This document shows, piece after piece, positions 8,326-39,500 of a stretch of 64,000 bases of DNA. Each line of letters begins with the position of its first letter. Positions within the stretch are counted from its first letter, which is position 1. Location: positions 16,926,001-16,990,000 of the forward strand of contig CM120645.1 in assembly GCA_051362555.1 (NCBI GenBank), in the 5' to 3' direction. The notes under the pieces were generated by a model that worked only from the letters and a program-made list of their open reading frames with translations, was not told the origin of the DNA and did not search any database. Source of the stretch: Lingula anatina (lineage: Eukaryota; Animalia; Brachiopoda). Made by a program: the position numbers and the translations under genes.

Positions 8326-9493
8326 ATGGAGGACTCTAGTGGCAGTGGTGTCTTGGACTCGTTTATTCACTTCGCTCTACTTGCGGGTGCCGTTTTTCAG
8401 TTGGCTTGCATATTTGCGGTTGTGATATTCCCAAAGAGAAAAGATGAAATGGTAATTGTTGTATTTAACATAGGTGTAGGTAACGATAAGTCGATATCAA
8501 TTTCATGATATTCACTTAGTACTTACTGGTAGTCTAGCTACTGCCTAGCTTCTTCAAGTTCTTGTTATTTATAATTTGCCACTATTGCTCCAAGATTTTT
8601 ACTCAAACCCAGATTCTATTGATAATACATTCTTCGGTACCATGCCCACAGAAATTTGGATCGATCTACTAGTATCTCCCTGGGGAGTCTTACTAAATTG
8701 CTATCAACTTAACCAGCTTAAATGTTTGTCACGCCTAGTAAAGCTGTTAGGCGGTAATTATCTTTACCCCCTAGCTGATTCGGTAGGCTTGACAGACATT
8801 TAAGCTGGTAAGTTGATAGCAATTTAGTGTGACTCCCCAGGGAGTTATACCCATGACCCGTGCCTTCATGTAAAATATACAGCTGACCCGTGCAGTCTGC
8901 TATATATTATGCTCTGGTCCTTCGCTCTAGGCCAGTGGCATTAAAATTTTGTTTGTACCAGTAGATATTTCAGAACATGTGAATTTAGTGATCTGGACTG
9001 GCCATTATGCCAACTGGCACTAGATTTTTTTCTATACTTTAATAAGTTTACAAGAGAGCTTTTGATTTGATTTAATTTATTTCTGGAATGAAGCTGTTAT
9101 ATCATAATTTTAAAAACCTGCAAATCTTGTTATTACTAGTAGTAACTAATAGGGGTAATTGTCCAGTCTTATTGACAATTTAAGTGAACTAGTGAATCCT
9201 GATTTATACCTATAGATTTTTGAAAAGTGGTGGTCCAAATGCCAGTAAGCTGAAATGTTTATGGCAAAGACTGACCATGTCTGTGATTTCTGTGAATTAC
9301 CATAGGATTTGGCAGAAATTTACATACAAGTAAAAGATTGCATCAAATTTCAGTGAAATTATTTTAGAACTTCATATTTCAGGAAGAGATAGAAGAAGAT
9401 AGTGCCCTTGATGCAAATGAACCACTGAGACAAGAAACAAGTAATTCAGGAACTAAAAAATTGAAGGCAGACACAAAAAAGAAAAAAAGATGA
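8326..9493 (+). CDS. MANBAL: MANBAL / UPF0239 small single-pass membrane protein, 78 aa; exons 8326-8451 and 9383-9493
   Basis: MEDSSGSGVLDSFIHFALLAGAVFQLACIFAVVIFPKRKDEM|EEIEED...KKLKADTKKKKR*. This matches the MANBAL pattern (YGLFLGAIFQLICVLAII ... KKETKKKR). Phase-0 GT-AG intron. Confidence 0.9.
8636..8858. mobile_element. Foldback MITE related to the copies at 17069 and 28767
   Basis: Long internal inverted repeat: cctggggagtc..actaaattgctatcaactta..ccagcttaaatgt versus acatttaagctggtaagttgatagcaatttagt..gactccccagg. Shares gatcgatct and aattgc motifs with the other two copies. Confidence 0.65.
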
Positions 9494-14500: not shown

Positions 14501-17421
14501 ACTAAGCCGAAGTGTCACAGTCTGCTAGAATATTTGTTCATGCTAGAATATTTGTGAAGTCATATTCTGCTAGAATATTTTCTCCATTACGGGACTATCC
14601 TTTGATTTATCTCGCCACCGCATTTTATATACATAATTATTTAATTGAGGACATAAATCTTATCCAGATACTTTGTATATCTGTAAAGGCTAAATGGGAT
14701 GCCAGTGGTATAAGAATCCATGTATATATATATTCAGAAGAGCGACCAAGTAATTACAGGACTCTGTAGTTTTGGATGGCGCCCATCCGTTCACCAAAGA
14801 AGCATAAAACAAAGATATATATCCTCGCCATTTCCAAGACGATATTTGGAAGGATTGTACCTTTTTTTTATAAATGTAAGGTAGGTAAAAAGACAGAATG
14901 GCTTATACCTGAACACCATGACGTAAACTTCCCGCTTCACACACAAAGGCGAAAATTTAAGTCTTAACTGCCTTATAAACGAAATAGCCGTTCGTGATCT
15001 CGAACCTCGGGTTTGTTATAGCGAACCCCAATTTTACGACTCGAACCACGATTGCACCATGGAATCGCCGTTTGAGTCGTGAATTTGTCGTTCTCGATCA
15101 CAGGTTCGTGGCTCGAGATCACAAACGGCAATTGTTGTTTATGAGGCCTGAATTTTGTCTAAATAGAATAAATTTACTTTGACCCAAAATAAATAAGAAC
15201 AAGTCAAGTTGAGCGTAAAGTTGGCCTGTCTCGTGAAAAGTAAGAAATGGCTTGTTTAAGGCGGCCAGGTTGTGTGCTACTGTTGGGGTTTTATGAAAAA
15301 ATGTCAGGAAAAATAACTATTTAATGTTTCAGCCAACTAAAAACAACTTACAATTTTCGTCCGGAAACTGTTTATAAATCTTATTGTAAAAGAAAAGTTT
15401 GATGTCCTCCAAAATGGCTCCGTTGTCCTTTCCAAGAAATGGAAAGAAATCACAGGGGTGCCTCTGAGAAATACCTGAAATTGAAAGGTTTTATATCAAT
15501 ATCATTCAACTTATTTATTAATGCATTTATCAACACAGCAGAATTTATTTTCATAAAAAGCAATTTTATGGGCACTTAAAAAAAGAACAAAAATAAGGCT
15601 GAACGCGGTTAACGATTAAGAACGAGTCGTCTATGAATGCAATCTTTCTTGCCTCATCAACAAACAGCTGTCAAATATCTTCATTCAACGGCAGCGAATT
15701 AATGACAGAAATCATGGATATTTTAAAAGAATGGTTTATTTAGCAAAATCTTCAGTTTTTTATTAGGCAGTTAAAAGCGCTGAACTTATCAGTTTGACAT
15801 TTTATGATGGTTTTAGCCTACACCTTCTCAAAATTACACAACAACACCAACTGCCATCTTTGTGTATGAACTCTGACCGAAGAAGGTAGGCAAACTTGAT
15901 GCCCTTGGTACGCTTGAATAAAGAGGTAAATAGGACACCTTGAATGCTTGATTCCCTGTACTCTAGCGACGCGACCATGCAGAATGAAAATTCGTCTCAT
16001 TTAACGCTCACTTACGGTTCTCAATTTGTCCTAGAACAAATTGTTTTTCTCTTTTAATGAAAATGCTCGTAATCTGAAGGACCTCCCCAAAACAGTTCTC
16101 GAACTGTTACATTCATTACAGAACAACATTACAGCTGTAAAAAAAATACACCAAATGTTCTAGAATAGATAACCGTAAGTGAACGTTACATCAAACAAAT
16201 TGTTACGTTGCTGTTAAACTGAAAAATACGAAGCACTCAGGTTAAGTGAAAACTTAATCTTAAATTCTTAAAAAATGAGGGTTTTAGACACAAAAATTAT
16301 TATATTTGTTTTTTAATCATCAGTATTAAGTTATTGCCGATTATATTCGCAGACAAGGTTTAAAGTAGGGGCCTGTTGATAGTTTTGAATAACAGCGAGT
16401 CAACTGCATTGCTGCGCGCGCAACTCATGTAAAGTAAATGGATAGAATATACTTTGCAATGAAGATTTAAGTCTCACCACCATGTGACAAAATCTTCATT
16501 AACATCTGCTAAGCCCACGATGAAACATAATTACAATAATGAGAGAGAGGACTCGCACCAAGCCCGCAAAAATGCCACATCATATCTACATGTATATTCG
16601 CAACCATCGCCATACCTATCAATTTATTCTTCTTGATGAAACATCGGAATTCCAGGCCTGGTTTCAGGTCCAACCATTTCCGAAGAACCATTTCGTATTG
16701 GACTTTCGCCTCGTGATCTGGGTCGGAATCGTCACATCTTACGAATCTGTTGGATGAAAAGTGAGCAATTAGTTAAAAATGCTCAGGCGTAATGTGTAGC
16801 TACTGAAAAGAGCTTCAAAGTGGGCATAAATTGTGGAATATCTGTGTTAAGGTGTCTTCAAGGTTTTATCAGCTAAAGTGTCAAATTAGTCCTTTTTTCA
16901 TTGGTTTTCCAGGCATAGACAAACCCATTTCAGTAGCTACTAGCCAACATTGCTAAAAAGACTGGGTTGATAGCTGCACTGGAGACCGAAATGTCCCTGA
17001 AAACGGAAATGATATAATTTAGCAATAAATCGCATCCATTACGTTATCCTAGATATTTCTATGACTAAGACCGCATTCCCATCGGTCTACGATCGATCTT
17101 ACTCTTCGGGGACTCTTGCTGAGTGCAATTAGCTTAACTGAATGATACACCTCTTGTTTCCAATTTCCAACGTGCTCATATAATTACTGGTCAGCTTTTC
17201 TGTATTCTATTCAACGTTAATTGCATTCAGCAAGAGTCCCGCAGAGTTGGGCCGATATACTTGGACCGATGGTGTCTATGGGAATGGGGCCTAAACTATT
17301 GTAAGTTCAACGCACAGAAGTAGATAAGGGGGGGGGGGGGGGGGTGGGCAAGGGGAATCCTCTCCAGTCTCCAACATTATAACCATTTATTTATTTATTT
17401 ATTGTAAATGATTACCCCCCA

Positions 17422-17498
<77 letters not shown>

Positions 17499-20400
17499 AG
17501 GGAGAAATTATAAACAAATAAATAAGATTTAACAAACACGTATGGATGCAGTCTTGAGTGAAAGAGTAAGGTGAGATAATGAAAGACAAAGAGCAACCAA
17601 GGGCCGATAAGAGAGAGAGAGAGAAAGGAGAGGTGAGGAGAGGAGAAGAGAATAGAAAGAGAAGAGACTTACGGTTCATTCAAGTCATGCATAACGAACT
17701 CGGAGCTCTTCAGTAGGAGGTAGATATCGCTGGGATTTGTGCACTTTAAAGTGTGATCAAACGCTATCCATGTCGCGTCCTGTAATGATTAAGTAAATAA
17801 ATAAAATAAGAAATGTGAGAAGAAAAATACACTAATTTTTTGTTACATTTCCACTTTTTTAAATTCAAAACAAGTTCAAAATATCAGCAGAAAGAAAGGT
17901 AACATTTTTAAAAATAATAAATCATTGGCGTGTAAAGGGATAATTCTGCATTTGGTAGGCACCATAGCAAATTGAATCAACTAACAAATAAAAAGAAATA
18001 GGCCAGGTTCATCAAGTTCGTTCTCTTTTTTCTCACGTCTTCCTTTTAAACCTTTAACCTTTAACATTCACCACCAATCCGAGATAATTATGTAGCGAAA
18101 TATATTCAATTTACAATAAAACTGTTCATAAAAATCTTAATCATTAGATATGATGCTTTGTAAAATAGTTTTCATCAAACCATGCGTACTGTCTATGCAG
18201 CGCACCAAATAACTGTCACGCTCTGTAGAAATCCCAGTGTTTGTACAACTGTATGTTGCATTCAGATTCCTTTTTATACGAATAATCAGAGATATAAACC
18301 GAATGATAGATAGAGGCGTGGGATTGAGTGCGCGCTCTCGACTCAAAGGATGAATTAATTTTTCACTCCAAAGGTTATCTATCCAACGGTGGCAATTATT
18401 CAAGATTCTTGTCGAATTTCAAAGTGTTCCGATTGACCTGAGAGATGATACTGGGGAGCCATCAGTAGGGTCCATGACGTAAGTGAATTGAGCAGAAAAT
18501 ATCGTGAATAGAATGACTAGCTTTTCACCTGAAGATTGTATCCACATCAGTTTGAAATTAGATCTTTAAAAATTTCAAAATTGATCAACAGGCATTACTA
18601 ACCAGCATTCGTTCTTTCTCATTCTCACAGATCTCTGTTGTTTTGTTTATAAGGCAGCATTAGACAAAATTTCTGTGTTTGCTTAGCAGTCCAATATACA
18701 ATTATGTACAGCTGAGTTTTTGCGTATTCTTTCATTTTGTTCTCAACGCAAGTCTGTATTCTGTTTTCCCCCATTTTGTTTGCTCAGTGCGTTGAATACT
18801 GAAACTTAAATCTACCTGCCTGACACGTGGTCCACACGTATGACTTGTCTGTAAGTTTCCACGTTTCAAGTTTTTATGCATGTATCTACCAATGTTACAC
18901 ACTTGATTTCAATGTTTTATCTCTTCATAATGCAAATTTCTAAAATGAGAAACATTAGTCTGCTATTTAGCGTTCTTCCTTAGCCGCAATACAGAATGCA
19001 AATATTTTTTTTTTCTTTTTCCTTTAGCCTTTCCTTGTGCATTTTTAATTTTTTTTTTTTTTTTTTTTTTTTGAAAATATAATTATATAATTTTTTAGTT
19101 AGGTAGATAAGCATTCATTCCCCATTTTAGTTGCAAAAATGCTTGACAAAGAAAATTTTCTTACCAAAAGTAAATTCCATAATTTCTAATTCAGCACAGT
19201 AAATCTCCCACTTCAATTCACTTATGGCAATTTCGTTTTAGGGCTAAAATCCAACATATCCGCCAATAAACAGGGTATCATGTTAAAATAAGCAGAACAG
19301 GACAATTGGCCTCTCCCTGGCTGTTTAAGTCAACCAGCTCACGTGCTTGATGTCCTGATAGAGCAGCATTTCGTGAAAACAAGAAATAAGGATTTCCACG
19401 AAAAATGATATAAAGTGTCTATAATTTCTTTTAGCTCCTCTTATTTCTTACTCCCGAATGACGGTTGTCTTTGTTATTCATATATAGAATATATATAGAA
19501 GAAAAACAGTCGTTATACTATCGGGTACGCTTTCAAACTGTTCCTAAAACTTTACACAATTTTGAAGAAAACTATGCCTCACAACGACTGGGCGCATTTT
19601 TATACATGTACCAGAGAAACACGAGAGACTGGTCACGATGCCCAGTTAACAAGTCTATTTCTAACTGATATGGCAATAGAAAACATATATTTCATAAATA
19701 TAAACTCGACACACATATAGGGCCTATAAATCTTTTGATATTATGTGAATTTCTGATTGGCATCCGCTGGCACCACAACAATGTGACGCACTTGTTTTAA
19801 TTGTATACTTTCTGTACCTGTTAGATCAATTTTCCCCGCGACAGCTCGAGTTAACCAAGCTGCGATCACATTACACCCAGAACACTGTCAGATATTTTTT
19901 TTATGTAATGACGATGGATAAATTGCCCCACCAAACTCATGAGAAAAACAATGTAACACTGCGCGATCCGCCATGTTTTTATTTTGCTAAGATGGGCGGA
20001 GTCTGCCGATTGGTCAATTTGTCCTCATTTCGAAACAACAAATCACAGGACAATGGCACCGCTGACACAGTATGGACAAACTGGGGACTCGTCGACCCAG
20101 GGTTTGTTAAACAAAGCGATAGAAGTCGTAAATATATCACAGTCAATGCTGTTTAGTATTTTGGTCGCCTTACTTGCGTTTCACGATGCAACAGAAAGGT
20201 TGTTAATATCGTTTTCTCGGTTTTGAAACTGTGCTTCAAGAGCACATCGTAATTGCTTTGACACTTATTTACTCTGAGGGTCGGCAATAGCCTATTTAGG
20301 TTTATTGGCTTCATTTATTGTAGAATACCGGCCAGTAAAACATTAGTCTGGTGTAGTAAATAGCCGATTTCAGGAAGTACGATGTACATATTTTGCGGTC

Positions 20401-20951
20401 TATAATGAGCCAAAAACTTAGTTAACCCTTTTTGTGAACTTGCATGGTCTCTGCTTTCTAGGTGGCCACCAACAAAAGCATTAGATATGGTACAATTGTT
20501 CGTTTCGGCAACGAGCACCTGATGAGTTTAAACACATGCACAAGGTATGCCAAAGGATAAGTGAGAAAATGAAGCTCCTCCTTGAGAACATAACAAAGAC
20601 ATTTTCACGCACGAACAAATGATGCTATGGATACCTTATAAGCATATTAATGCCCGTCCTGTCAAAAAGCACTGTCGGTGTTTACGAAACACGAATAGTC
20701 TATATATTTGTCATTTAGTTGATGAAACTTGAGTGAAGAGAACATCCAAGAGGACTAAACCATGAAGAAACTGGCGCTGAGGAACTACACGAACGGGACC
20801 GTCATGACGGACACGCTTCACAAAGAATCTAAACAGGTAAACCACAAAGCCATACTTCACTTGTCATTAGTACAAAATGGTAAAGGTATGTTGATAAAAA
20901 AGTTTCGAAAATCTACAACATAAACGCTAGATGAATATTTGATTCACACGC

Positions 20952-21009
<58 letters not shown>

Positions 21010-21520
21010 GCACACCAACATACACAGACCCGGTTGCTGCAGTACATCGCAACAAGTAAGTTACCTGATATTGCTTTAATTAAAAAAAATAATAATAAAA
21101 CTTGATTTAAAAGTCAATATATTTTTGACTTTAAAAACCGATGCATTTCACGGGTCTGTTTATGGTGTAATGAATAAGCGAAATAAGTACATATATAATG
21201 AAAAAGAAATAAATCATGAATATTACAATAAATGTATATTTTTCTGATAACTGAAAAATTTTATTCGTAACACCAAATATTATCAATTTCTGTATTTAAA
21301 TGTTGATTGCGTTTTTTTTTTAATGATATAATAAAATTGTATTTTCTTAAACAGATAACGACTCTTCATATGACATTTGAAATTCCAAAATAAATACATT
21401 GTAAACAACACAAAGAAATATAATAAATTCCATTTCACCACTAAAACGGCGGTATTCGCAATTATTATGAAATCCTTGCTTGCCATCGGACCACGTGAAC
21501 CTTGCAGGGCTTCCATCTTA

Positions 21521-21562
<42 letters not shown>

Positions 21563-24500
21563 GACCATCTTCGAATGTCGGAGCGAATTCATTAACTATT
21601 GGTAAATATGGGTACATCGTCGCTTCCCCCCACAAAACGATTAATGAGTTAATGAGTTGTAAGCCGATTACGTGTGCGGTGATAGGTCATAAGTCTTACA
21701 TCAGCTAAGCAGTGAAGAAGTCGAGTACGCTATGGGGAAGAGAAAAGTTCGCGTTAAAAGTCCATTTCCAGAGGAAAGAAAGAAAATTTTTAGAGTATGT
21801 GGGCGGTTGGAGGAAAATCGGTATTTGTTCAGTCGGATGACGAGGGAGAGAATCTACCTGGAGTGAGGGCTCGTAAGATTTTGAAGGACTTTGAACAGCC
21901 CTCGGAGTCTTCTGACAGTGATCGTGAGGAAGAAACAGTAGCTACTGGGTACAGGCTTTGGCACAGTGGACAGTTGTTAGAAAGTGCCTACAAGTCGTGT
22001 GTTTGTCGTGTATGGCGGCGACGTTGTGTTGGTCGAAAGACAGCTACAGCCATTGGCGCATGTACAGCTCAAATAAAAGCATCATGAAATGTTTAATATT
22101 ATTCGTCTTTCTTTTTTCTTTATGTATACCTGATAAATGGGTGAAAGAGTAAATCGAATCGTCTAAATTAATTGAGAAATGTATTTGTACGAAAAATTTA
22201 TTACTTAAAGAAAAAAAGCTAAAATCGATACTTTTAGCCTAGCTCTTAATCTTGGCGATATATATCGGCGAGCGTATCTGAGACACGTTACGAACCTGGA
22301 AATGATTGTTGGACGCCTTTTGTAGAAGGTAAAAACTAATGTTGACATAATATAATTTTATTCTCCAATAAATGAAATCAAGGAGCTTTAGAGACACGCA
22401 AAATATTGATGTGAATGGCCAAACGAGAGAAATCCAAGCAAGGGTTGACAGCATGATTAAAAAAAATAACAATGAAAATAAAAACGCATGTTAACTTGCA
22501 TTTTGCGATGTTTGGAGAAATCACAGATCAAGCGGGAAGAAAGAGTTCAAAATGTACCCAAAATAAAAATCACAAAAAGACTTCTTGAAAAAATTAATAC
22601 CCCCCCCCCCCCCCCACCCCCGAGTTCACAATTACCAGGATAATCAGTTAAGAACTACTACTGTCACCCAGTTTTATCTGATCACTTTGCCGATAACAGA
22701 AAAGGAATCTCTCAGGTAAAATTACTCGATTGCCGAGGGAGACCCATTGAAACGTTCAAATGCAACTTCACACCTCTTAATTGTGGTTAAACGTAATCGC
22801 CTTTGTTAGCGCTTCCTTCTACATATCCTTGACACCCTACTGGACATCACTAGGCTAGGGCCCTCTCCAGAGCTGTCAATCAAAATGGCGGCACGCTTAT
22901 AAGCCTAACGAGTGGTCGGAAAATGTAACAAAAGCACGATTTTCTGCCCTTTCAAAGCACCCAAACAAAATATTTTTAGATGACAATGAGCAATGGTTCC
23001 ATCTGATTGTATAACCGATAACAGGTAAATTTGCCAGCTAAGCATTTGACTAATAAGCTCTGTTAACCAACCTGTGAACGTTTTTGGCTGTTTTAACAGC
23101 TTTCTATATTAGCGAGATAAGTGAATCGCTGCCAGGTATATCTCACTATCTGAGCAACCGATCGTTACGAAAGTTGCACCTATTGTTGTTGGGAATGTGG
23201 ACTACAGCACGATGTCAGGGGTTAAAGAAGAAATTGTTTTATTGAAAGTTATCGTCTTTTGAAGTGAATAACCCATTGAAATATGGGGTAATTTAACGTA
23301 AAAGATGATAAAATCAAAAGTAAATAGTTTAAGACAATTCCCTGGTACCGCACTGAAGTGTTTTCACCCAGCTTTATGAGGCCTTTTGAATCACTTGAAT
23401 AGCTGTCTTGGTTATAGAGAAAATCCCAATTCCGAAAACGGCATTTTTCCCCTAAAATTGGCGCTATAGCGTCATCCGTTGGACACTGTACTTAATCTCC
23501 GTCTTTAATTGGCCTTTGGGAAGTTTGTTTTAATTTTTTATAAAAACTTATAAGCCCAGGGCTTTGTTTCTATGCTTTTGGTCCTTTTACTATTAGCCAC
23601 CTTAAGCCAATGACACTTTTGACTCCCAAGAAGTCGGAAATCCGCCGATAATCGGGAAAATCTCATCCCTGTTTAATAGCCTGGGTATGACGTAGGAGTC
23701 ATCCAAACGGAGTCTCCGTGCTCGACACGGCCAGTTAAAGATACCTTAACCGGGACATTCGCAGTCTCATCTTTCCTCGAAAATTTCAATTTCCTCCCAG
23801 CACTTGAATGAAATTATTTTCCGGGATATGCACAATCTCATCTTTCCTCGAAAAATATCAATTTCTTCCCAGCACTTAAAATGAAATCATTTTCTAATTA
23901 AATAATTAGATCTAAATTGCTGTCCTGTCTCTTAAAACACCATGTCTTCCTGTGCATTTTAGTGCATTTATGCTTTTATTTTAGGGTTTTTTTATCGTAT
24001 TTTAGATTTGAATTTGAAAGATAACTCTATTTCTTTTGTATTATTATTTTTTTTTATAATATAATTGGAAAAATATAAATCGTTGGAATTCAAAAAACGT
24101 TGTTGTCTTTTGAAATAGGCCTATGTTCAATAAATAAACACACAATCAAAATTGTACACACACGTGCAGTGCAAGAAAGTAGCGTAGCACAAGTTGTTAC
24201 TTCACTCAAGGACAGAAAGGGAAATTCTTTTCCAAAAACCGATGTGGGGGAGTCGCGCTTCAAGGCGATGCGAGTTACATTATATGTCATAATTTTGCTA
24301 GCCTTATTGGAGAGACGGTGCGGGGACATAAAGAGATGACCCGAACCTAGACCTCATGATTTCAGGCTCTGCTTGCAGTCTAATTTGTGTTAACTTCTTA
24401 AAATCCAGGCTAAATTCCACAGAAGTATTGACTGAGCATATGCTGTTTTCGAAACCGACAACCGAAAGCATCAATAGACACACCGAGCAAAATTAAAATT

Positions 24501-27500
24501 ATTTATTATCCCACAAATATAACTGAACCTTAGGACGGAATGTTGTCTCATCATTATAAGATCTCGCTGAACAGTCTGCTTATATCAAGCCGTATCTGCT
24601 TTTGGTATTGTCATCCAGTGTTGCATAACAGGCTAATTCAGTAAATAAATCAATCAAGTTTCTTCTCTTTAACTGATTACAGGGAAAATGTAGCATAACC
24701 TGATAATACTAATAACAAAAACAATAATAACCGTAATGATTTTATAATAATTAAATTCTGACGGTGTGAATACGCGTCGATGCCGCCCCGGCCCGATGAA
24801 TTTTGATTGGCTCTAACAGTTGGAAGGGAAATCTAGTTGTGAAAGCAAGTAGGTATGTCCAGAGGAGTACACCTTGGTGAGAGTGAGCAAAAACCCCATA
24901 GCGTAAACGTTGCGAGTCAGATTAGTATACCACTCGATGTGAAAAGTTCCAAGGCCTGTCTAGGTAGTAATAAACTCACTGAAGGACTCGCAATGAAAAA
25001 GCTGGTGTTGAAGAATTATTCGCATGGCACAGCCACTAGGGACTCTCTTCATCAAGACGCTAAACAGGTAGCTATATGAATTACGTACATCAGAACGACA
25101 ATATTCAGATATTATGTTTTTGTTTCTGTTTGTCTGTTAGCTAAATTATGGGAAAAGGGGGAGGGCGGAATTTGATGCAATTTTTCGAAGCTCTCGGGAG
25201 GGGACAAAGTAAGAAAATATTACATCTAGGATCAAACATTATTTTGGTCCAAGAATTGATGTTGGTGGTGTTCCATTAATTAATAAAAAAAACATAATAT
25301 TTTCACTCTTATTTTTTAGCCTTTGCATCCTGATTAAAATTAATCATTGAAGTCTGTTTGTTTGTTAGCAAACAGTTGGAGAGGAATTTAGATGAAATTT
25401 TCAGGTTAGGTAAAAAATGGACTCGATTTTGGTTTAGTCAGAAAATAAATAATGTGAATTAAGTTGTCTTGGCACAGGTTAGCACTCTCTGAGTGATTTT
25501 CTAGATTTTGTGATAATAACTTCTTATCACAATGACCTCATCAGGGTGAATGCCTGCAGGTTGCTATTAACTTGAACTAAACATGAAGATGGCCAATATA
25601 TAAACATTAAACAAAGACATTCAAAGAAACAGAAAAGGTTGTGATAAGTTTGATGGTGACAGAAGTACATTTGAAAGAATTAATCTCATCAGCATTATGT
25701 GATATTTAAGAAAAATTGACAAAAGCATTTTTTGCACTACCATCACAAAAATGGTTGTTCATTATTCTAAAACTGTTTCAATGTCATTGCTATCATTTCT
25801 GTCATTAATATGTCTGTCCATTTGACATTTTTTCTGTCCTTTTTTAATATTGCTATATTGGTGATGTACAACTGGAATATAAGTCTGATTTTTAGCTCCC
25901 CCTCAAATGTTGCACCTTGTGATATGCCCATTGATTTCTGATTAAGGATAACATAATGATCATGATAAAATTTAACTGATTAAAAGATGAATGCACCAAA
26001 ATCTAATTACCTTGAACTTACCATGACACAAATGAAATACACTGTAATCTCGCATGAATATGGGACCATTCAGATTGAGAAGAGCCGAGTGCTAGTAAGA
26101 CCGCAACCGAAATATTGCAGACCTACATGAAAGGAAGACCTCTAATCCTGTAATGGTCTCTCCGCCTCTCACTCGCCTCCCCACGCATTGTGTATATCAT
26201 CCATTACATTCAAATCAGTCACAACACTCCCTCTATCTGATAACCAGACAGAAATAATTTTGCCTCTTTTAGTTTGATTTTTTAGCCCCTTATAGTATTT
26301 TTTGTTAGGTTTTTGCACTTTTGACATTTTGAACTACATAAACATCATGACAAAGGGAAAGAAGCTGTAATTGATATAACCAATGAAAAAAATTAATTGG
26401 CTGTTCTTTATCAACTGATTTCAAACTTAAAACACCAAAGAACTCAATGAAAAAGTACTACAGCCACTTCTACCACAGGTAATAATTACTGTATGATAAT
26501 AAAGAAATGATACTGTTACTTATAATAATATCAGATTATAATAATCATGAAAGTAACAATACTACTAATAATGATAATTTGATACTTTCAGTCCATTTGC
26601 CCACTGGCATCCATTTGCACAGGTGCCTTTGTCATCAAACCGTCAACTGTACCACCACAAGAAGCAACAGATCGCAATAACGACCAAATCCAGGTCGAGG
26701 CTCTCGACTTCATTGATCAGTATTATTGCCATCTTAACCGGTATGGAGATGTTTATAATAATTAATCATATATGAACATTGACTAATTTCAAAATAGATG
26801 TATTTAAAAGGAAGTATTAAAAATAACTATATAAATACAGAATCCAATGATTAATTTACACTTTATCTTAATTTTCATTATTTTAATTTTTGTTAATAAT
26901 ACTTTTAAAAAATTATGTTGAACTTGTTAATGCTAAATCATCTTCCCTGAACTCTTTGCAATTTCACCCTTTTTATTTCTGATTTGTGTGATTAGTGTTG
27001 TACTGGTAACATGCTTATATTTTTATATCTTATTTTGCTTTCCCGATTGTTCATCTCAAATAATCACACATAAGAAAGACATAAAAGAACACCATTCCAT
27101 CCTCTGTTTCTATTTTGAAGAAAGGACAGTGAAGAACATCTGCAGCGGAAAGTAGTTGTGGCTCAAGCTATCCAAGACACAGGGACGTACCACATAGAGT
27201 ATGATGAACTTGTCTTTGGTGCCAAAACTGCCTGGCGAAATGCCTCACGTTGCTCTGGGAGAATTCAATGGAAAAACCTTCAGGTATGAGCTATTATCAA
27301 AGACCAGTGAACAGTATAAAGAAGGTTGGTCTTTTAAGATATTAAAATAGAGTTTATATTTTTCCTGTCTTATCATTTTAATTGTTCATTAGTACTGGAG
27401 TATATTTCTCACTTGATCTGTCTTAAAATCAAGCTCTCTCGATCTTCATAATTATATTGATTACCAGGTATTTGATGCACGTGAGATACAGACAGCTGAG

Positions 27501-30500
27501 GAAATGTTCAGAGCGATTTGCCATCACCTCACCTGGGCAACAAACGGAGGAAATATCAGGTAGGTTTATTGAGTTGCTACTTATGACTTGATTAATTACT
27601 TCACCAATTAACAAACCATTTTACTGCTTTAGAATTTGCTCTAGTTTTGTGCGCCCTTAAATGCTCTTTGTAATCATTGTCTGATTCATAAAGCCATGTC
27701 TTTAATTAATCATTTCAAACCATAATTATTTAGCCTAAATATGTCTGAAGTGATGATGACCAAACCACTGCTGAGCATTGCTCTTTTTGCTATAACTAAA
27801 TAGATCCACGCTAGAGAGGCAATCAAATTTGATAGCTAACTGCATAACTAATCAGAAGTTTCTTCATATTTATATAACAGGTCTGCCATGACGGTGTTTC
27901 CAGCACGCACAAACAAGAAGAAAGACTTTAGAATTTGGAACTCTCAGTTTATCCGTTATGCTGGATACAGGATGCCAGGAGGACATATTATTGGGGATCC
28001 ATCCAATTTATCATTTACTCAAGTAAGGATCATTTTCTCCTTTTGTATTCCCTTTGCAAAATTCTTTTTCTATCATTGAAAATCTTTCAGGCATTCAAGC
28101 ACTACTCATTATTTTGCACTAGGTAGTTATCAAAACTGTAGACCAAACTGTATTCCAAGTATATGTGTCTTCTTGTTGAATCTACTTTATTTATTTATTT
28201 ATCTATTTATTTATTTATTTTGTCCCTTTTTTCAAATTGATTTTGCTACCAGTCTTATTAAGATTTTTCTCATATCAAAATCCATCACATACTTCTAATT
28301 AACATGTTTATTCATCTCGATAGACATTTGAGTTTTACTCATGACCCAGTCCAAACTTAGGCCGGTATCACACCCCCAGCTGCAGTATACTTATGTGGAC
28401 ACTACTCTACCCAACACTTCTTGTCTCTGTTTCAGAAAAAATTGGAAATGTCATATAACCACTGTTTGTGATTTCCAAATAACTGTGCACCTTGGGGTGA
28501 GAAGAGAGCAATTAATTTAATTTCACATGTTTTCATAATATCTTTCTGTTTGTAGATTTGTGAAAGGTTGGGTTGGAAGGGGAAAGGTGGCCATTTTGAC
28601 GTCCTTCCTTTGGTACTCTCTGCAAATGGGGAACCGCCTGAACTGTTTGAGATTCCCAAAGAAATAATATTGGAGGTGGAACTGACACATCCTAGGTAAG
28701 CAATGGCATCTCATACTACTTTTAACAAAAACGTTGTCAAATACCTGATATTCATCCAAAGTCTCAGATGCCGTTCTTATACCTAGATCGATCTAGTGGG
28801 ATCGGTCCATCTATGAGGGGATTCTCACTAAATTGCACTCACTTAGATGGCACACCTACTGAAACTGTTAGGGGGTAATAAAGTATTCTTTAGCAGTTTC
28901 AGTAGGTGTGCCAGACATCTAAGCCACTGAAGCAGAGTGCAATTTAGCAAGAATCCCCTCAGGGACCGATCTCACAAGATCGATTTAGGTATGGGAATGG
29001 GGTCTCAGAGATAACTGGTAATTCACCTCTTCTATCAGAACACCACTCTGCCACTTCCAGTGAACAGCAGGAGTATGGTGATAACAGAGGTGGGTTTCCA
29101 GAACCTCTGAACTAAAGAGTGTGATATACCATACACTTATATACCGTAAATCCTAATTTGAATTTGTCATTCATAAAAATTTGGTTTGACAAATAAAATT
29201 ATGTTTGGTGCATTTTTTCCATATGTCTGACATTCTAAACCAAACGGAGGCTTAAGTTTGTGGTGTTTGTTGAATGTTTTAGATTTGACTGGTTCAAAGA
29301 GTTGGGACTGAAGTGGTATGCAGTACCTGTTGTTTCAAACATGCTATTTGACTGTGGAGGGTTGGAGTTTCCTGCTGCACCATTCAATGGCTGGTACATG
29401 GGCACAGAAATAGGGGCAAGAAACCTATGTGATGTACAGAGATACAACATTCTGGAGGTATGTAGATTTTATCTGGCATGGGCTGTGGTGTCTTTTATGA
29501 TTCACACTGACCTGACTAAGAAATTCTATTGCAGACACATACTTTTAATTTGAAAACTTTTATAGTTGTCATATAATATTTTTATCTCATCATGTTGTAC
29601 ACTAAATAAGACTGTGTTTTTACGTATAAAGATTGATATGCCAATGATATCAAATATTTTTATCTTAAGTAAAATATACTATCCTGAGCACCAGGTCATA
29701 TGTTTGCCAGCTCTTTATTAGCAATCCTCCATATGTGAATGCTTGTTGAACTCTGACATTTAGCAGAAAATTTGTTTGACATTTACTGCATTAGTCATAA
29801 ATATGCATCCAGTAGCTGCATGTCATGGCTCTGTATAAGGACATGTGACATTGTTAATAGTCCTGTCTGACATCTGTGATTTGCACAACTAACTGGAATT
29901 ACTGTAAATGCCTCTTAAGTTCTGACAGACACAAATGTAAGGAAATTTGAAAATGAAGAAGCTGGGCTACATTGGCTTTAATTTGAAACTGGCTAAACAT
30001 CCCTGTGTGTTGTGCAATGTTTCAGATAGTGGGTCAGCGTATGGGGCTGGACTGCAGGTCCTCTGTGAACCTGTGGAAAGACCTGGCACTGGTGGAGGTG
30101 AATATTGCAGTACTGCACAGTTACCAGGCAAGTCATTCAAAATATTCTACCTCTATGCATTGCATTTCATTTTAGACTGCTCAAAAAATCATTTCTTGTC
30201 AGAATTAAGACAAGAAAAATAAAACACTTTTGTATATTTATATTTTTTTCTTCATTAAAAAAATTCCCAATGACCATTTTGTTCACAGAAAGCCGGGGTG
30301 TCCATAGTAGACCACCACACTGTGGCTGAAAGTTTTGTGCAATTCATGCTTCAAGAGGCCAAGACCCGTGGTGGCTGTCCTGCTGACTGGGTGTGGATTG
30401 TGCCCCCCATCAGTGGGAGCATTACGCCAGTTTTTCATCAAGAAATGGTCAACTATACCATCAAACCTTCATTTGATTATCAGGTAACCAACAGTGTTCT

Positions 30501-33500
30501 TTATTTCTAAATCTGAGAATTGATATATAATAAGACAGTTTTAAGCAATTTCATTTTTTTCTTTTTTATTAAAAGAATTTTAAGTGTGAAATATGACATT
30601 GTGTAACAAGAAACTGAAGCAATTGGACTTAATGGCAGGGTTTGTTATGGTCATTACTATAACTAATATGAATTCATAAATTAGCAGAGCAATGATAGTT
30701 AAAATGCTAAATCCTACATATAATCCAAATGATAATTTATAATGAGCTAAAGCAAGTTTCAGAAGAAAGTTATACATAAAAATGACCTTACTTTGCAGGA
30801 GGATCCACCATTACTGCTACTGAATCAGTTAGACAAAGAGAAAAATATGAAGAACTTGGTGTTTGGAATTTTCAGGTACAAATCTGTGAGAAAGTACATC
30901 AAAATGTTTGAATGACAAATTTTTAATTAATTTTTTGAATGAATAGAAAATATTTTTATTTTATGGTTTCTGATAATAAGCCAAGAGTGAATTGGTTACT
31001 CATTTCACAAAATCAGTTTTGAATTAGTTTTGTAGGAAATATAATCCTAAACGATGCTTTCTTTGTTATGTTTTTTATCTCTCTCTATCTCTGATATCAA
31101 ACCATTTTATTTCTAGGGCTGTTCTCTTGGCTACAAAGCTAAAAATGAAAATTCGGAAGTGCAGGCCTAGATGCCTCATTCTGTTTGCTTCAGAGACTGG
31201 AAAATCTGAACAATTTGCAAGAAGATTGGAAGCAACAATGGGAAGAGCCTTCAATGCGAGGGTGAGTGTACGCTATCTTTTAAATCACAAATAGCTGAAA
31301 ATGCTGTGACCAAATTAAGCAGCAGAGCCAAATCAACAAATTGATGAAGATTTTTTTTTTTTTTTGTTTTCAAAAAAATAACTTAATTACAATAAATTAT
31401 TCAAGGAAATTATATAAATATATCTGTGTGAACCCAGGGGCTAATCAGAAATCTTTTATGTCATTAAAATGATAAAGTCTTTTTATTTGTAACAATGGTA
31501 ATGGTAACACCAGTATTCTCAAATGAATTTCCAACATCTTTTGTTTTCTCACCATTTCCAAACAATTTAATACCTCACAGAAATTAACAATTTTATACCT
31601 CCCTGTAACAAATACTTTTATGCCTCACTGAGACAAAGAGCCTAAAGATTTTGGACTACAATTCAGTGGGGGAATTCAGTTTGTAATAAAATGTCAAAAA
31701 CCACACCTTTTAAGTCTTAAAAGACCTTTTTCAGATCAGAAAATATTATGGAGTGATAATACTTGCACAGTGATTCACAATGACACAAATATTGACGATG
31801 ATTAACCATCATGACACTTTCAGAATAATCTAAATGTTTGACTTCAATATACTAGTATAAGTACATTTGACATGCACAACTAATAATAAGCAGAACATTC
31901 CCCTTCCTACTACAGACAGTGTGTATGGAAGACTACCCTGTCTACAACTTCCTTCAAGAACAGCTAGTTCTAGTGGTGACCAGTACATTTGGACTGGGCA
32001 GTCCTCCACTAAATGGAGAGGTGAATGAGCATTTCAGTTTAAAAAAACAATGTCGTCATTGTAATTTATATGGTGAAGTTTAACAGTGTGTGTGCATCAG
32101 ATAGAAATAGAAAGAGGGGATAGAGAATGAACATTGCAATGTAAAAGAATGTCTTCATTGTAACAAATTGGCTAATATAGAATGTGTACGTTGTATGTGT
32201 ACGTGTAATCAAGCACGTACTCTGTATATGTGGTCTAAGATGAAGTGAGAGAACTTAACAGATCATGTCTTATTTCTGTTACAGACATTCTTCAGAGCTC
32301 TAGAATCCTTTGAAAAGAATCTTTCCAATATAAGGTACTATAATCATTTCACTTTAATTGGTGTCCATCTATTTCCCTTCATGACATAATTTGAGCCCAA
32401 AACTATAAATTCTGCCTTGCTTCCCTTGGTAAATATAAAACAACAGAAAAGGGCAATTTTACTTATAATATGTAGGGTACAGAGATAGAAAAAAATCACG
32501 TAGGTTTCTCATTTTGCTTGAATACCAGGTTTGCAGTGTTTGGCCTGGGCTCCAAAGCCTACCCTCGATTCTGTGCATTTGCTGTGCACATTGATAACCT
32601 TCTGAGGAACCTTGGCGGTCAGCGCATGACCTCACTAGTGAAAGCGGACAGTCTGAGTGGACAAGAAAAACCCTTCGTTAAGTGGTCCAGGCAGGTTTAC
32701 AATGTAAGTTTGTCAAATGCATAAATTGCACATTAAGATCTTTATACACTACTAAATTAATTTTCTCAGAAATTTAAACAAATTTTTCTTTATCATCCTA
32801 TCTCGAATCACCAAGAAAGTATCATCCAACAAACTTTTTAGAACTTTTAATTTAAGTTTTAAGCTTTTGATTTAAGTTCTCTGTGCAGGTCATAGGACTG
32901 CTCTGCTGGGATACACTGTAGAAGCCCACAAATTCAACTTAATGACATTCTGTGAAGTTTTCTAATACTATTAGAACTCGATAAATGCAGTCATCTAATG
33001 ATCGTCCACTGAGATAAATAAATTGTCAATCAAAACTTTTAGTTATATCTTATTGTTTGTAAATCATATTTTAATAAATGGCTACATATTTTTAAAATAC
33101 TAGGCACACTACAAAATTACTCTTAAATTTAGGGCAAAATTTCAGTTTGCATGCTTTTGTAATAAAGGGGACATTGTTTATTAGAAATGAGACAATATAT
33201 GTTTGTTACCTGTATAAATGGTGTTATCAAAATAATACCATCAAATAAGATATCAATTATTTCATGACAGGAAGCTTGTGCTTTGTATGGGTTGTTGACT
33301 TTCAAACACGCTGATGACATCGAAGTGACCACTGAATGGCATGAAGAGAGATTTCGTTACACAGTGGTCGGCAAAGAGGAGGACATTATCAAGGGTAACA
33401 ACAGTCCAATGAAAAGAACAGTCATCCATTCCCTCTATTAAAATACCTGTTTTGATTTTAAAATGATGCAAAAGTTACCAATTATTAAAATTGGTTAAAA

Positions 33501-36500
33501 TGCAGTATATTTTGTAAATGTGTCATCTCTTCAGGCAATACTTATTCCTTTTTCCCTTTTCCATCATACACCATAAATTTTATGCAATAAAGTTTGACAA
33601 AAAGCATTTCTCTTTATATCTTTATATCTACAAATCACATTTCTATTGTGCCAGGTCTCTCTGAAATACATGGGTACCAGATGCAGTCCTTCAACATAAT
33701 AAGTTCTACAAATCTGCAGGCAAAAAGTTCTGGGTAAATAATTTCTTATCATCAATCATTTCATGTTGAGTAATTTTAAAACCCATGGATATGTATTACA
33801 TGTAGCTGGTATTCATTCTCAGTTTCTTCAGAAGAATAACCACTATTTGGTAATGAGCTACAAAACTAGAGCAATGACTCAATCTTTTTAAGTGGGAAAA
33901 ATTATTAATTATTCAGACACATCGTTTTGTGTCTACATTTCAAATTTAAATGGGAATATTCTAATTTTAGGAATCTATGACCTAGAAATACATTATCTGT
34001 AAATGCAGTACAATTTTATCCATTGAAAAGATTGAGTCATTACCATGTAACTGTAAGGCTATGAGTATATTCGGTATTAACAGAAAACAAGCTGTCATTG
34101 TCTAAGATAAAATAATTTCTTGTTCTTTTAGACTGAGAACACTGTCAGTTAAACTGCAGAGCACCACCAACAAAGACAAGCTGGTTTACCAACATGGAGA
34201 CCACTTGTTAATCTTCCCTACCAACAACATTGCCATGGTGACAGCTATCATTCAACGAATCAAAGACCTACCTCTATGTGGCGCAGCTGTCCAACTAGAG
34301 ACCTTCTCAGTGAAACATAATGGTACTAGACATAGACATACTTCATTCTTAACTGATTGCCTAAGCCACTAAGTACCTGTGTATAAATCTTTAAATATGT
34401 CATATCATAACATCTGATGTATGTACCCTGAAGGTTTACGGGGCCTTATGATTTCAAGCAATAGATATGTGAACCATAAATTCCCTGTGGATAAATGCAT
34501 TTTCCTCAATATTCCAACAATTCTTTTCATCAAGCTATGAAACTGGCAGAGATAAGAAAATAATATTATCTGCATATCCACTTTTATAAAACTTAAATCA
34601 GTAAAAGATGTAAAATATTTCAATTTATTTACATCAAGTACAATGGTTAACATAAAAATTATGATTTATGAAAATAGGTTATGGTGATTTAATATGAAAC
34701 TGTACACATACAATATTCGCTAGATCCTGGCAAAAGCACTTCAGTTTAAGCCCAGTCTGTATTTCTCAGCACTTGTGCTGAAGTAGAAATATGATAATGA
34801 CATTTCTATTTTCTAATCATGTTTATCAGATCAATAAAACTCAAAGCACTTTGGTCATTATATTTGATAAAATATGATATTCCATGTTATGATTCCTTTC
34901 AGCATGGGGTTCACACCCTCGCCTTCCCCCATGTACCATCCAGATGGCGCTGCTGCACTACCTGGATATCACGAAACCCCCAACACAAGACATGCTTAAA
35001 GGTTTGGCACAACTGGCAACAAACAACAAGGAACACAACAGACTCATAACACTGGCAAAGGTGAAAACAATAAATATGTTGTAATACAGATATTGCTTTG
35101 TTTAAATAAGCAAGTTATATCAATATTGATATGGTATCAAATTTCTTTCTCAGATCACAGTGAAAGTTTATTGATATATAAGTACTTGTTAGAATTTATT
35201 CATTTATTTTGAGCATCGTAAGAAAATTGTGCAGGCCTCTAAGAGCCTTGGTGCTTTGCATTCCAGAACGAAGAAGCATATCTACAGTGGAGGGACTACA
35301 AGATGCCAAGCATTGTAGATGTCCTGAGTGAGTTTCAGTCCATACAATTGCCTGTGGCATTTTTGTTGAGTCAGCTGCCTATTTTGGAACCTCGCTGTTT
35401 CAGTGTCAGTTCCTCCCCTGATGTGCACCCAAACGAAATCCATTTGACAGTTGGGGTCCTGCAGTACAGGACAAATGGTAACTATGGCAACTGCACTTAA
35501 GATTAGCACTCTCTCTGGTAACTGATAAATTGTATTCTAGCAAATGCAATTTTGGTGAAAAATATAATTATAGACTTCACTACAATAGGGAACACAGAAT
35601 AAAGAGATTTGTATTGTAAAGTATTTGCTGGCTAATCAGATGTTAAAACATACACAGAGGCTCTTAAAGGTCAAATTGGGGAGTTATTTCCCTCTGAATT
35701 TGCCTTCAGAGTCGTTTTTTTTTTTTTTTTTTTTAATTGAAATGGTTCACGTCCTGCTAAATGCACTTCTCTGACAATATAACTTTTCACTTAAAACAAC
35801 AGCTGTAATTGTGAAAAGAAAATTTCATCTCATCATACTAGTGTTTACAGAATAAGTTACTTTTCAGATGGCAGGCTCCATGATGGGTTGTGTACAACTT
35901 GGTTGGAAAATCTCGGACAAAATAACAACACAACAACCATTCCCTGTGCAATTAAATTGTGAGTTCACAAAAGTCTTTTTTCCCAAGTATCAAATAATTT
36001 AAGAGACAGGGGAGAAGTGTTTTTGAAACTATAAATTTCTTGCAATTAAATTACAGACTGTATTTTTTTAAATTAAATAATAACTAAAATTATTCAAAAA
36101 TAAGATTGGCAGAGAATTTTTGAAGACAGTCGAAAACATAATATGCTGTCATTAAAAATTGGTTGTCTCAAATGTTACTGAGGGACAAATTTTAATTTTA
36201 AAAGGTACAATTACTAATTGCAGTGACCAAAATACAGGACTGCATGCCCTTAGTAAAACAAGACACCAATCATTTAAAAAGTCAGTGTTTTGATATATGT
36301 GAGATATTTTACAATAAATTTGTTTACCCAAGCTTATAAAAAAACATTTTTAGTTTTGACAAGGGAAATTCCTCTGTGCATTTCTCTTCATGTACCTGAA
36401 TTTCTGAGAAACTGCTGCTAATTTCAGACACAAGACGTTCCAGCTTCCCCATAATGCAGGTGTTCCTGTTCTAATGCTTGGCATAGGTACTGGCATAGCT

Positions 36501-39500
36501 CCTTTCAGAGGGTTCTGGCAGCACAGATACTACCAAATGATCCACCCAATGCCTGGTAAGGAAACTATGCACCTCATACACCAGGCCACAAAACACATTT
36601 TACAAGTCTTCAGTCAAAAATTGGTTTTAGCGAAGGCTGCTAGCCAACCAAGCTAGGTTTCACAAAGGAAATTAGCAGTTTTAATAGCTTAAAAGCCCCA
36701 AAAGTAAGTCTTATTATAAATCAGAAGACAGGAATGTAGACCAAAAATACATCTGTACGAATGTCTTTCCAGGTATCAAATTCGGACCAATGACTCTGTT
36801 CCATGGCTGCAGACAGAAAGGTGTGGATGATCTCTACAGCCAAGAAATCTCCCTGATGCAGGAAAGCAAAGTCTTGACCAGTGTCCACTATGCATACTCT
36901 AGAATGCCTGGACAACCACGGGTGAGGTCAAACTGGCCCTCTGAGCTCATCAATCATTAAAAACTCTCCCACCACTTCACTATATGCAGTTGTGTTAAAA
37001 CTTTGAGGCTTTTAATTCTTAGTTCTTACAAAAAAGCTGTAGAAATACCAGTCATTGTAAAGATGCCATATCAAAAACTGCCTCTTTCAAAAACCTTTTT
37101 CAAAAAATTCCATTGTGACTTCATAGTTTGTCAACACCATGCTGCCGACAGGATCAAAAAAAGCAATATGGAAGTGACATGTGGTGCAGAAAAACAAGAG
37201 CACTCATTAAGCTTCAATCTTAAACTACATTTCACGTTACACTAGCTTCATAAAATGCTAAATTTTATATTTGTCATTATGATTCTATTTTTTTTCCTAA
37301 AGATTTACATTCAACACCTCCTCTGTGAGCAAGCTCAAACAACCTATGAACAGCTGGTAGTTCAAGAAGGCCATATCTACATCTGTGGAAGTATAACTAT
37401 GGCTATGGATGTCAGAAAGGCATTACTGAATATTCTGTGTGAAGAGGGCAACATGACAACTGACAAGGCTCAGAATTACATGGAACTTCTTAGAGTATGT
37501 ATAAATGCAATCTGAAGTTACTACATACCTGAAACTGCTATTAATATAGACCAAAAGCTACTTTTTTCACCCAATTAATCACTACACAGCAGCATGACTG
37601 AAAAACATAGCCTTTTTACAAACTTTGCATCTGTTTTTAATTTGTTTCTTTGCAAACTTTGCATGAGTCTCAGAATATTTATTTTGTTTACTTAAAATAT
37701 AATGCCAAAACAAAAGTCCTTTAAATTCAAGCAGTTCCTGTCTGGCTGGGTGTCTGGCTGTATTTTTCTGAACTGTAAATGAATTATGAAGGGGATTTAC
37801 ATACTCTATATACCATTACTAATAAGTTTATATATAACCAATACATAATTGATAATTTTTACAGATATTTTCAAATCCTTTTTTTTTTTCAGAAATCTGG
37901 TCGGTATCATGAAGAGCTGTTTGGGTTGGGTTATCCACACCACAGACTGAATCACATCAAATAGGTCAAGTTTCCTCAAAGAACTCAAGGGCAGCTGTAG
38001 TAGGGGTCTGGTTTGGCAGGGGAAAGACTTTAAGTTTTAACTCCCCAGCCCCTCCCACCTATAGCCGGTTTTTAAATATTTCAGCATGCAGAGGAAAAGA
38101 AAGTATTTTTTGCCATTCCACCCCACCCCCTTCAGTAAAATCTTGCACTGATAGTGGGGATAAATGATCATATGTAACAAGAACTTGCCTTTATTAATAA
38201 TTCAAACTTTTACATGTTTTTCAAAAACAATGCACATACATATTAAATGCATTTCATTTTTTATTACAACTTTGTGTGATAGCAAGAATACAGGATTACA
38301 GTTTCACTTTGATTGTATTTATTTATTTATATGTTTACGTTTCTACTGTATTTGTTTTGGAATTATATATTTTTTCATTTATCAATATTGTTTACTCAAG
38401 TAATTCATCTTCAGTGCCCATGACAAAAGTACATGTCAGCAATGTAAATGTATCATTTCTGCTCTAAAGACATCTTTTAAATTTAAAACAACTACTAACT
38501 ATCTTGCACATATATAGTTCTAACAGTTACCCATGAAGAGTATTTTATCTTATATGATGTCACCAAAGGATGTATTTTTTAGGTATATTTATTCTTGATA
38601 CTATATATATAAATAATAACCTAGACAGTCCACCTATCCAGGAAATTCTTATATATCATTTAATATTTATGTAAAACAAAGTTTGTATATTGGAGCAGCA
38701 TTTTATCTATAAAATTTATTTACATGATTTGTTTCTTGAACTGTAATAATACATCATTATTATTGTACCCACAACTTCAGACCCAATGAAAGCCAGGTTC
38801 TTCTATACAAATCTCCATTTCTGCTCAACTCATCATAGGGCATATGTGGAAAGTTTAATATAAAGAACCTGGTCTTTATCAAGTCTGAAATTTGGGTTAT
38901 ATTATTGTAGAATATATTTATTATTTAACTGACTGTATAAAAAGGACAAGACTTATTTAAATATTTTTAAAGATTTTTAAATCCTTGTATTATGATAACT
39001 TTTACCACCAAATGTTACAGATATAGTCTATATGTTTACCTGGTATCAGAAATTTGTAAAATAAATATTTTAAAATTACAACTACTAATTACAATTACTA
39101 ATATTCTGCTGGATAATGCCTTTTGACATATAAAATGGCATGTCAAATGTCCATGATGTTAACACTGTTCAACTTCCATGACAAATGACAGTAAAATTGA
39201 AACTGGACCAGAAAATTTGGTAAATTTGTCTAGCTACATGTAACAGACACTTTTTCTGCATAAAACCATTACTATCTAAGATTAATCATATGTGAAGGTT
39301 TTTTATAAATAAATTTACATATTTAATACATTTTTATCTATTTAACTTAATTATTATGTTTTTTTTTCAAGTTTAATATGCAATAATGCAGGAAAACATT
39401 CTTTATATTGTATACCGGGGCCTTTATCCTAAATTGTTGGTATCAATATCAGAAAATAAAAGTTTTATCAAGTTTTATATATTTCATTTAATCATTGCCA

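What the first reader, a model, noticed from the sequence alone, without database searches (positions are those of the whole stretch)
20762..25067. NOS has two duplicated, apparently alternative first coding exons encoding different N-terminal hooks
Seen: 20762-20836 ([25 protein letters not shown]) and 24993-25067 ([25 protein letters not shown]) are both exactly 75 nt, gap-free homologues. Both end AAACAG|GTA in phase 0, both are preceded by aggact, and either splices in frame to 26592. They are well diverged in DNA yet neither has a stop or indel. Joining A to B through the nearby AGs (24963, 24967, 24984) hits stop codons, which argues against tandem inclusion. Known: this segment is the beta-hairpin N-terminal hook just before the Zn-binding cysteines, involved in oxygenase dimer assembly and stability. 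Inference: two promoters swap the hook on one catalytic body, with copy B optionally adding 46 aa from ATG 24855. Vertebrate NOS1 alternative first exons are mostly non-coding, and I do not know a described case of a duplicated hook exon. Copy A is too short for the ORF track.
Basis: partly seen in the sequence, partly recalled or inferred. Interest (0 to 1): 0.85.

Follow-up and report, generated by a model that had tools for sequence, protein, structure and literature searches.

The report
Brachiopod NOS with two swappable hooks
A nitric oxide synthase gene of the brachiopod Lingula carries two old duplicate copies of the short exon that encodes the enzyme's dimer-forming hook; one copy is spliced in RNA, and the other is intact and likely used rarely or in other tissues from its own promoter.

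Summary
[quoted passage not shown] RefSeq already models both, as isoforms X1 (A) and X2 (B), but no paper found describes them. A splices to 26592 in 32 reads from 3 of 6 RNA runs laid. No B junction reached the listing threshold; B shows only trace sense coverage. B has still been under selection: dN/dS about 0.17, hook core residues kept, upstream DNA unalignable, and a relic-from-birth model about 100-200 times less likely. Recent decay is not excluded. Best reading: a duplicated promoter plus first exon, where each copy must keep a working hook because this protein starts at the hook. The 46-aa extension of B is unsupported. The arrangement is a known kind (homologous N-terminal substitution), but I found no described case for NOS. 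A brittle-star NOS annotation shows a parallel hook swap (1 of 20 other clusters checked).

The parts
20762..20836 (+). Hook exon A, coding part (ATG to donor); N-terminus of RefSeq isoform X1 (XP_013413681.1)
   Evidence: Sequence; joint to 26592 in 4+7+21 reads; identical to the N-terminus of P0122
20430..20761 (+). Likely 5' untranslated part of exon A; start not mapped; holds 11 upstream ATGs
   Evidence: Sense coverage in bins 20441-20922 of X2 and X3 with no upstream joint listed; ATG list
24993..25067 (+). Hook exon B, coding part; N-terminus of RefSeq isoform X2 (XP_013413682.1)
   Evidence: Sequence; identical to the N-terminus of P0003; trace sense coverage and no joint listed
24770..24992 (+). 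Candidate promoter and 5' UTR of B (GC-box-like and CCAAT-like words at about 24780-24810, read by eye); includes the open frame from ATG 24855
   Evidence: Sequence; sense coverage in X1 and X3; CpG depletion starts just after B. Promoter function is inferred
26592..26740 (+). First shared exon: zinc-site cysteines with unusual C-x5-C spacing, and start of the oxygenase domain
   Evidence: RNA joints
26592..37961 (+). Shared NOS body, 23 exons, 1034 codons: oxygenase, FMN, FAD and NADPH domains; no PDZ, no autoinhibitory insert

Best explanation
An old tandem duplication, likely of the promoter and first exon, gave this iNOS-like gene two hook-encoding 5' exons: A is spliced to the shared body in RNA, and B is intact and likely a minor or tissue-restricted alternative. 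Because this protein begins at the hook, each first exon must carry a start codon and a working hook, which explains the selection on both. The main gain is likely regulatory (two promoters for one enzyme). The 11 amino-acid differences spare the conserved core and would at most fine-tune dimer assembly. Shown: duplication, hook homology, A splicing, constraint on both copies. Inferred: the B promoter, B splicing, and any division of labour.
For: A-to-26592 GT..AG joint on the sense strand in X1 (4), X2 (7) and X3 (21 reads). RefSeq X1 and X2 differ only in these 25 residues. Synonymous sites differ at 10.5/16.5 and non-synonymous at 11.5/55.5: dN/dS 0.17, Fisher p 0.004. The four columns conserved at 92-97% in 72 other NOS sequences (N8, D17, L19, H20) are kept in both copies. 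Upstream DNA is unalignable while the exon is gap-free. Simulation gives approximate likelihood 0.37-0.39 for both constrained against 0.002-0.004 for B a relic from birth. Both hooks are modelled as a beta-hairpin plus short helix. Intronic CpG depletion starts about 130 nt after B's donor: o/e 1.1-1.3 in the non-repeat A-to-B interval, 0.05 at 25201-26050 and 0.2 over 22 later introns, as expected if B marks a promoter edge.
Against: No B joint listed in any of 6 runs laid, against 32 for A. Allowing up to 2 unlisted reads in each of the three expressing runs, B's share is at most about 29% (95% bound). Decay during the last 10% of B's history is only about 2-fold less likely. Differences fall at less conserved columns only marginally (p 0.06). 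The CpG argument is weakened by a control: the neighbouring CDC123-like gene body is not CpG-depleted either. Hook pLDDT is only 51-68. No orthologue outside Lingula was found to test conservation. No NF-kB-like word lies near either copy.
Confidence: 0.6

Rival explanations
1. B worked for most of its history but is now a nearly silent, recently retired promoter-exon, and the RefSeq X2 model rests on stray reads.
For: No B joint listed in 6 runs and only 89-217 bases of sense coverage per bin. Late decay fits nearly as well. Repeat-derived DNA fills much of the A-to-B interval.
Against: B is intact with an identical protein in two assemblies (this window and RefSeq), though their bodies differ at only 11 of 1034 residues, so this is weak. 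The RNA sample is shallow and all signal comes from one study. X3's coverage (89+89 bases) fits two reads ending at B's donor (arithmetic only).
Confidence: 0.2
2. The two hooks were kept because they give biochemically different enzymes (dimer stability, pterin dependence, or A/B heterodimers), not merely two promoters.
For: 11 of 25 residues differ, including Thr/Ser at the position matching nNOS residue 315 (its importance is recalled, not read). The shared zinc site is atypical (C-x5-C against x4 in 43 of 46 others), which may put more load on the hook. Amphiura X1 and X2 swap hooks at the same place, also ahead of an odd cysteine spacing.
Against: dN/dS is far below 1 and most changes are conservative. 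Ser at that column occurs in 10% of other NOS sequences. The two models are alike.
Confidence: 0.12
3. A and B are internal mutually exclusive exons fed by a shared non-coding 5' exon, so there is one promoter.
For: Acceptor-like AGs lie upstream of A (20718) and B (24819). RefSeq also has a hookless X3 model, which implies some further 5' structure.
Against: No joint into A from upstream was listed in 20200-27400, where no joints were hidden. Coverage tapers upstream of A across 20718.
Confidence: 0.06
4. The pair is an assembly artefact, or both exons are included in tandem.
For: In-frame AGs exist in the region upstream of B.
Against: The copies are 29% diverged and both occur in a second assembly's gene models. 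Reads from A skip B directly.
Confidence: 0.02

Closest known systems
Tandem exon duplication-derived N-terminal substitutions (PMC8373072; passages read: 39 N-terminal cases in human, made by alternative promoters)
   Same: Duplicated 5' coding exons give homologous, interchangeable N-termini on one body, under purifying selection.
   Different: The term NOS1 does not occur in that paper's main text (its supplements were not checked). Here the organism is a brachiopod, use of the second exon is not shown, and cross-species conservation could not be tested.
Variable-first-exon clusters: UGT1, GCNT2, clustered Pcdh (PMC1885805, abstract) and chelicerate sDscam (PMC4835542, abstract)
   Same: Tandem homologous first exons spliced to constant exons.
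   Different: Only two exons of 25 codons; they encode a structural hook, not a large recognition or substrate-binding domain.
Human NOS2-1 and NOS2-2 (PMC8991583; abstract and section 18 read)
   Same: An iNOS with an alternative first exon that changes the N-terminus, with context-specific use.
   Different: That exon replaces the DINNN-bearing leader and is not described as a duplicate. From recall, the hook lies downstream and is unchanged. nNOS beta/gamma forms (recalled) truncate rather than swap.
Amphiura filiformis NOS RefSeq isoforms X1/X2 (XP_072024834.1, XP_072024835.1)
   Same: Two different hook-bearing N-termini joined to one shared body (1083 aa) just before the zinc cysteines.
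   Different: Annotation only, not checked against DNA or reads. The leaders are longer (74 and 79 aa). X1's leader resembles that of a paralogue (P0183), so it may be a partial gene duplicate or a fused model.

Membership tests
Animal nitric oxide synthase | Oxygenase, flavodoxin, FAD and NAD(P)-binding domains in one chain | tested here: met
   PF02898, PF00258, PF00667 and PF00175 above cut-off
Animal nitric oxide synthase | Heme Cys, substrate Glu and pterin-stacking Trp/Phe motifs | tested here: met
   Motifs (recalled patterns) found at 113, 291, 379 and 392; aligned to nNOS
Animal nitric oxide synthase | N-terminal beta-hairpin hook | tested here: met
   Residues 4-25 align to nNOS 301-322; hairpin in both models at pLDDT 51-68
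Animal nitric oxide synthase | Cys-X4-Cys zinc site (as defined in PMC9500659, passages) | tested here: not met
   C28-x5-C34; 43 of 46 others are x4; region pLDDT under 50. Zinc binding itself is untested
Animal nitric oxide synthase | NO synthesis as a dimer | not testable with these tools
   Needs recombinant enzyme
iNOS-like architecture | No PDZ domain and no autoinhibitory insert in the FMN domain | tested here: met
   No PDZ; FMN motif span 39 aa against 77 aa in Owenia NOS. Orthology to vertebrate NOS2 is not implied; tree position unresolved
Tandem-duplicated N-terminal substitution | Two homologous 5' coding exons in tandem | tested here: met
Tandem-duplicated N-terminal substitution | Each exon spliced to the same downstream exon | tested here: inconclusive
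   A shown by 32 reads; B only by RefSeq model X2 and trace coverage
Tandem-duplicated N-terminal substitution | Each exon has its own promoter | not testable with these tools
   Indirect only: coverage taper at A and CpG boundary at B with a contrary control
Tandem-duplicated N-terminal substitution | Both exons conserved across species | tested here: inconclusive
   No orthologue outside Lingula retrieved; within-pair dN/dS 0.17
Variable-first-exon cluster (UGT1/Pcdh type) | Array of many variable exons, each encoding a specificity domain | tested here: not met
   Two 25-codon exons only; no third copy

The most novel reading that the evidence does not exclude
Invertebrate iNOS-like enzymes have repeatedly evolved interchangeable dimerization hooks, in a brachiopod and independently in a brittle star, both alongside a non-canonical zinc site. 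Promoter choice would then set dimer stability and NO output, and A/B heterodimers would add a third enzyme form.
Probability: 0.12. Interest if true: 0.72.

Novelty: new member of a known kind. Interest (0 to 1): 0.42.

Why it matters
NOS works only as a dimer, and the hook with the zinc site stabilizes that dimer (PMC9500659, passages). Two natural hooks on one body are a ready-made controlled experiment on which hook residues matter, especially next to an atypical zinc motif. If B is confirmed, NOS joins the genes that diversify their N-terminus by duplicated first exons, with a possible parallel in echinoderms. If the hooks prove equivalent, it is an ordinary duplicated promoter whose coding part is carried along, and of modest interest.

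Tried and rejected
No whole genome is held for this window, so other Lingula NOS paralogues and flanking scaffolds were not examined. No indexed RNA holder was listed. Searches for orthologues or transcript fragments outside Lingula found none: near lengths, 77 hits, best non-Lingula 38-53% identity; shorter proteins, 0 of 8 candidates; 50% representatives, 3 weak hits, two of them repeat-rich proteins. The tree is the quick version only (careful search unfinished); the Lingula gene sits on a long branch (0.98) with unresolved placement. Foldseek confirmed the reductase fold but said nothing about the hook. NF-kB-like words: 5 in the window against 4.2 expected, none near A or B. No long inverted repeat pairing the A and B regions was seen among the 25 longest of 47 pairs. 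'aggact' as a conserved element was rejected. The 46-aa extension is not supported; its CLGS-like word is treated as chance and was not tested. Xenia X1/X2 differ across a near-identical duplicated 5' half (464-471 aa), a different and possibly artefactual case. No complex prediction was run, since an A/B dimer would pass by likeness to solved NOS dimers. The iNOS hook mutagenesis paper (Ghosh 1999) is not held; only its title was seen. Ten paper searches (listings only, except for the papers cited as read) found no description of a duplicated NOS hook exon; subscription journals and supplements are not covered. Three look-ups of earlier findings were empty.
Full report
Observation. The two segments are as described: 75 nt each, ATG first, no stop or gap, 53/75 nt and 14/25 aa identical, each ending in a GT donor in phase 0 that fits the acceptor before 26592. 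The match is far above chance: the next best is 37/75, and the local score of 40 exceeds a shuffle maximum of 20. No third copy lies in the window. The upstream 60 and 300 nt do not align better than shuffles. The downstream 300 nt gave p 0.02, which I attribute to simple sequence without having tested it.

The gene. One shared exon is 100% identical to a Lingula anatina protein named 'nitric oxide synthase, inducible isoform X2'. Its cluster holds X1, X2, X3 and a partial copy. X1 begins with A, X2 with B, and they are otherwise identical; X3 has no hook. So an automatic annotation already models both exons; I could not see its evidence. The window's 23 shared exons give 1034 codons with no stop and differ from RefSeq at 11 residues, so the window is another haplotype or a very close relative. 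The protein has all four NOS domains, no PDZ and no autoinhibitory insert, is about 41-48% identical to 52 other animal NOS sequences, and sits on a long, unplaced branch in a quick tree.

What the exon encodes. Residues 4-25 align to nNOS 301-322, the stretch just before the zinc cysteines. AlphaFold models both copies as a beta-hairpin (about 4-8 and 13-17) plus a short helix (19-22), at modest confidence of 51-68. [quoted passage not shown] In 72 non-redundant other NOS sequences, N8, D17, L19 and H20 are 92-97% conserved, and both copies keep them. A hook profile built from the others scores A 27.7 and B 24.2 bits, below the 10th percentile (28.9) of the training sequences themselves. A and B are closer to each other (14/25) than to any other hook (best 12 and 13), which thinly favours duplication within the lineage. 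The shared zinc motif is C-x5-C, against x4 in 43 of 46 others.

Expression. Six of nine offered RNA runs were laid, about 6% of each large run and 25% of X7. The A joint appears on the sense strand in X1, X2 and X3 (4, 7 and 21 reads; one study). X4, X5 and X7 show no NOS joints. No B joint was listed, where no joints were hidden; the threshold is 3 reads from 2 starts. B has sense-only coverage of 89-217 bases per bin in those three runs. X3's pattern fits two reads ending at B's donor, but this is arithmetic, not an observed joint. B is therefore a minor form in these samples, at most about 29% at the 95% bound if 6 reads went unlisted. Coverage tapers upstream of A with no upstream joint, which fits a first exon.

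Selection. Between A and B, 10.5 of 16.5 synonymous and 11.5 of 55.5 non-synonymous sites differ (dN/dS 0.17, p 0.004). In rough simulations that used A or B as the ancestor, the observed state had approximate likelihood 0.37-0.39 with both copies constrained, 0.16-0.20 if B was free for the last 10% of its history, about 0.05 for 25%, and 0.002-0.004 from birth. B has thus been functional for most of its existence; present function is likely but not proven. Differences fall at less conserved columns only marginally (0.36 against 0.56, p 0.06). CpG depletion typical of methylated invertebrate gene bodies (established knowledge) begins about 130 nt after B and not after A, which suits a promoter at B. 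The adjacent CDC123-like gene body is also undepleted, so this is weak support.

Mechanism. Since this protein starts at the hook, its first coding exon carries the start codon and the hook together. Duplicating promoter plus first exon gives two entries to one body, and each must keep a working hook (0.6). Rivals are a recently retired B (0.2), hooks kept for different biochemistry (0.12), internal mutually exclusive exons (0.06) and artefact or tandem inclusion (0.02). The 46-aa extension of B is possible but unsupported, as RefSeq X2 starts at 24993.

Other species. No orthologue outside Lingula was retrieved. Among 20 hand-picked multi-member NOS clusters from other invertebrates, one shows two diverged hooks on one body: Amphiura filiformis X1 and X2, joined to a shared 1083-aa body just before the cysteines, which are spaced x8. 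Xenia shows a near-identical duplicated 5' half instead. The other 18 show one hook per species. The Amphiura case is annotation only, and 90% clustering hides more divergent isoforms.

Comparison and verdict. Homologous N-termini from duplicated 5' exons and alternative promoters are a known class, with 39 human cases (PMC8373072, passages). Larger arrays exist in UGT1, Pcdh and sDscam (abstracts), and human NOS2 has an alternative coding first exon (PMC8991583). Ten searches of the open literature found no duplicated NOS hook exon; subscription papers and supplements were not covered. Verdict: real, a new member of a known kind, already in automatic annotation, with B's use still to be shown. 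Interest 0.42.

Noticed in passing
window 26598-26618: The shared zinc motif is C-x5-C, and the Ser two residues after the second Cys (93% conserved elsewhere) is Ala; zinc and pterin binding may be altered.
   Followed up: partly
window 26604-26606: The Met that starts RefSeq's hookless isoform X3 is a Leu codon in this window's allele, so X3 would not start there in this haplotype.
   Followed up: partly
P0130 and P0196 (Amphiura filiformis): Two RefSeq isoforms with different hook-bearing N-termini on one body, with C-x8-C spacing; paralogue P0183 lacks the first Cys.
   Followed up: partly
P0265, P0187, P0266 (Xenia sp.): Isoforms differ across a near-identical duplicated 5' half of 464-471 aa: a partial tandem duplicate or an uncollapsed haplotype.
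   Followed up: partly
window 12000-25200: A 13-kb CpG-undepleted domain spans a CDC123-like gene and the NOS 5' region and ends sharply just after exon B.
   Followed up: partly
window 12146-17788 (minus), possibly to about 19975: CDC123-like (D123) gene head-to-head with NOS. Its 5' exons were not located; a candidate ATG near 19975 follows GC-box-like and CCAAT-like words but had no Pfam match.
   Followed up: partly
window 21640-24000 and 26060-26190: Repeat-derived segments between and after the two exons draw many divergent reads on both strands; element type not determined.
   Followed up: no
window 20444-20722: Eleven upstream ATGs precede exon A's start codon, including a 4-codon frame at 20722; they could damp translation of longer A leaders.
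   Followed up: no
window 45952-46293 and 8317-8505: Exons matching Vezatin (PF12632) and UPF0239 (PF06783).
   Followed up: no
P0121: A partial RefSeq NOS on a 43.7-kb contig shares several alleles with this window and is likely a haplotig of the same gene.
   Followed up: no
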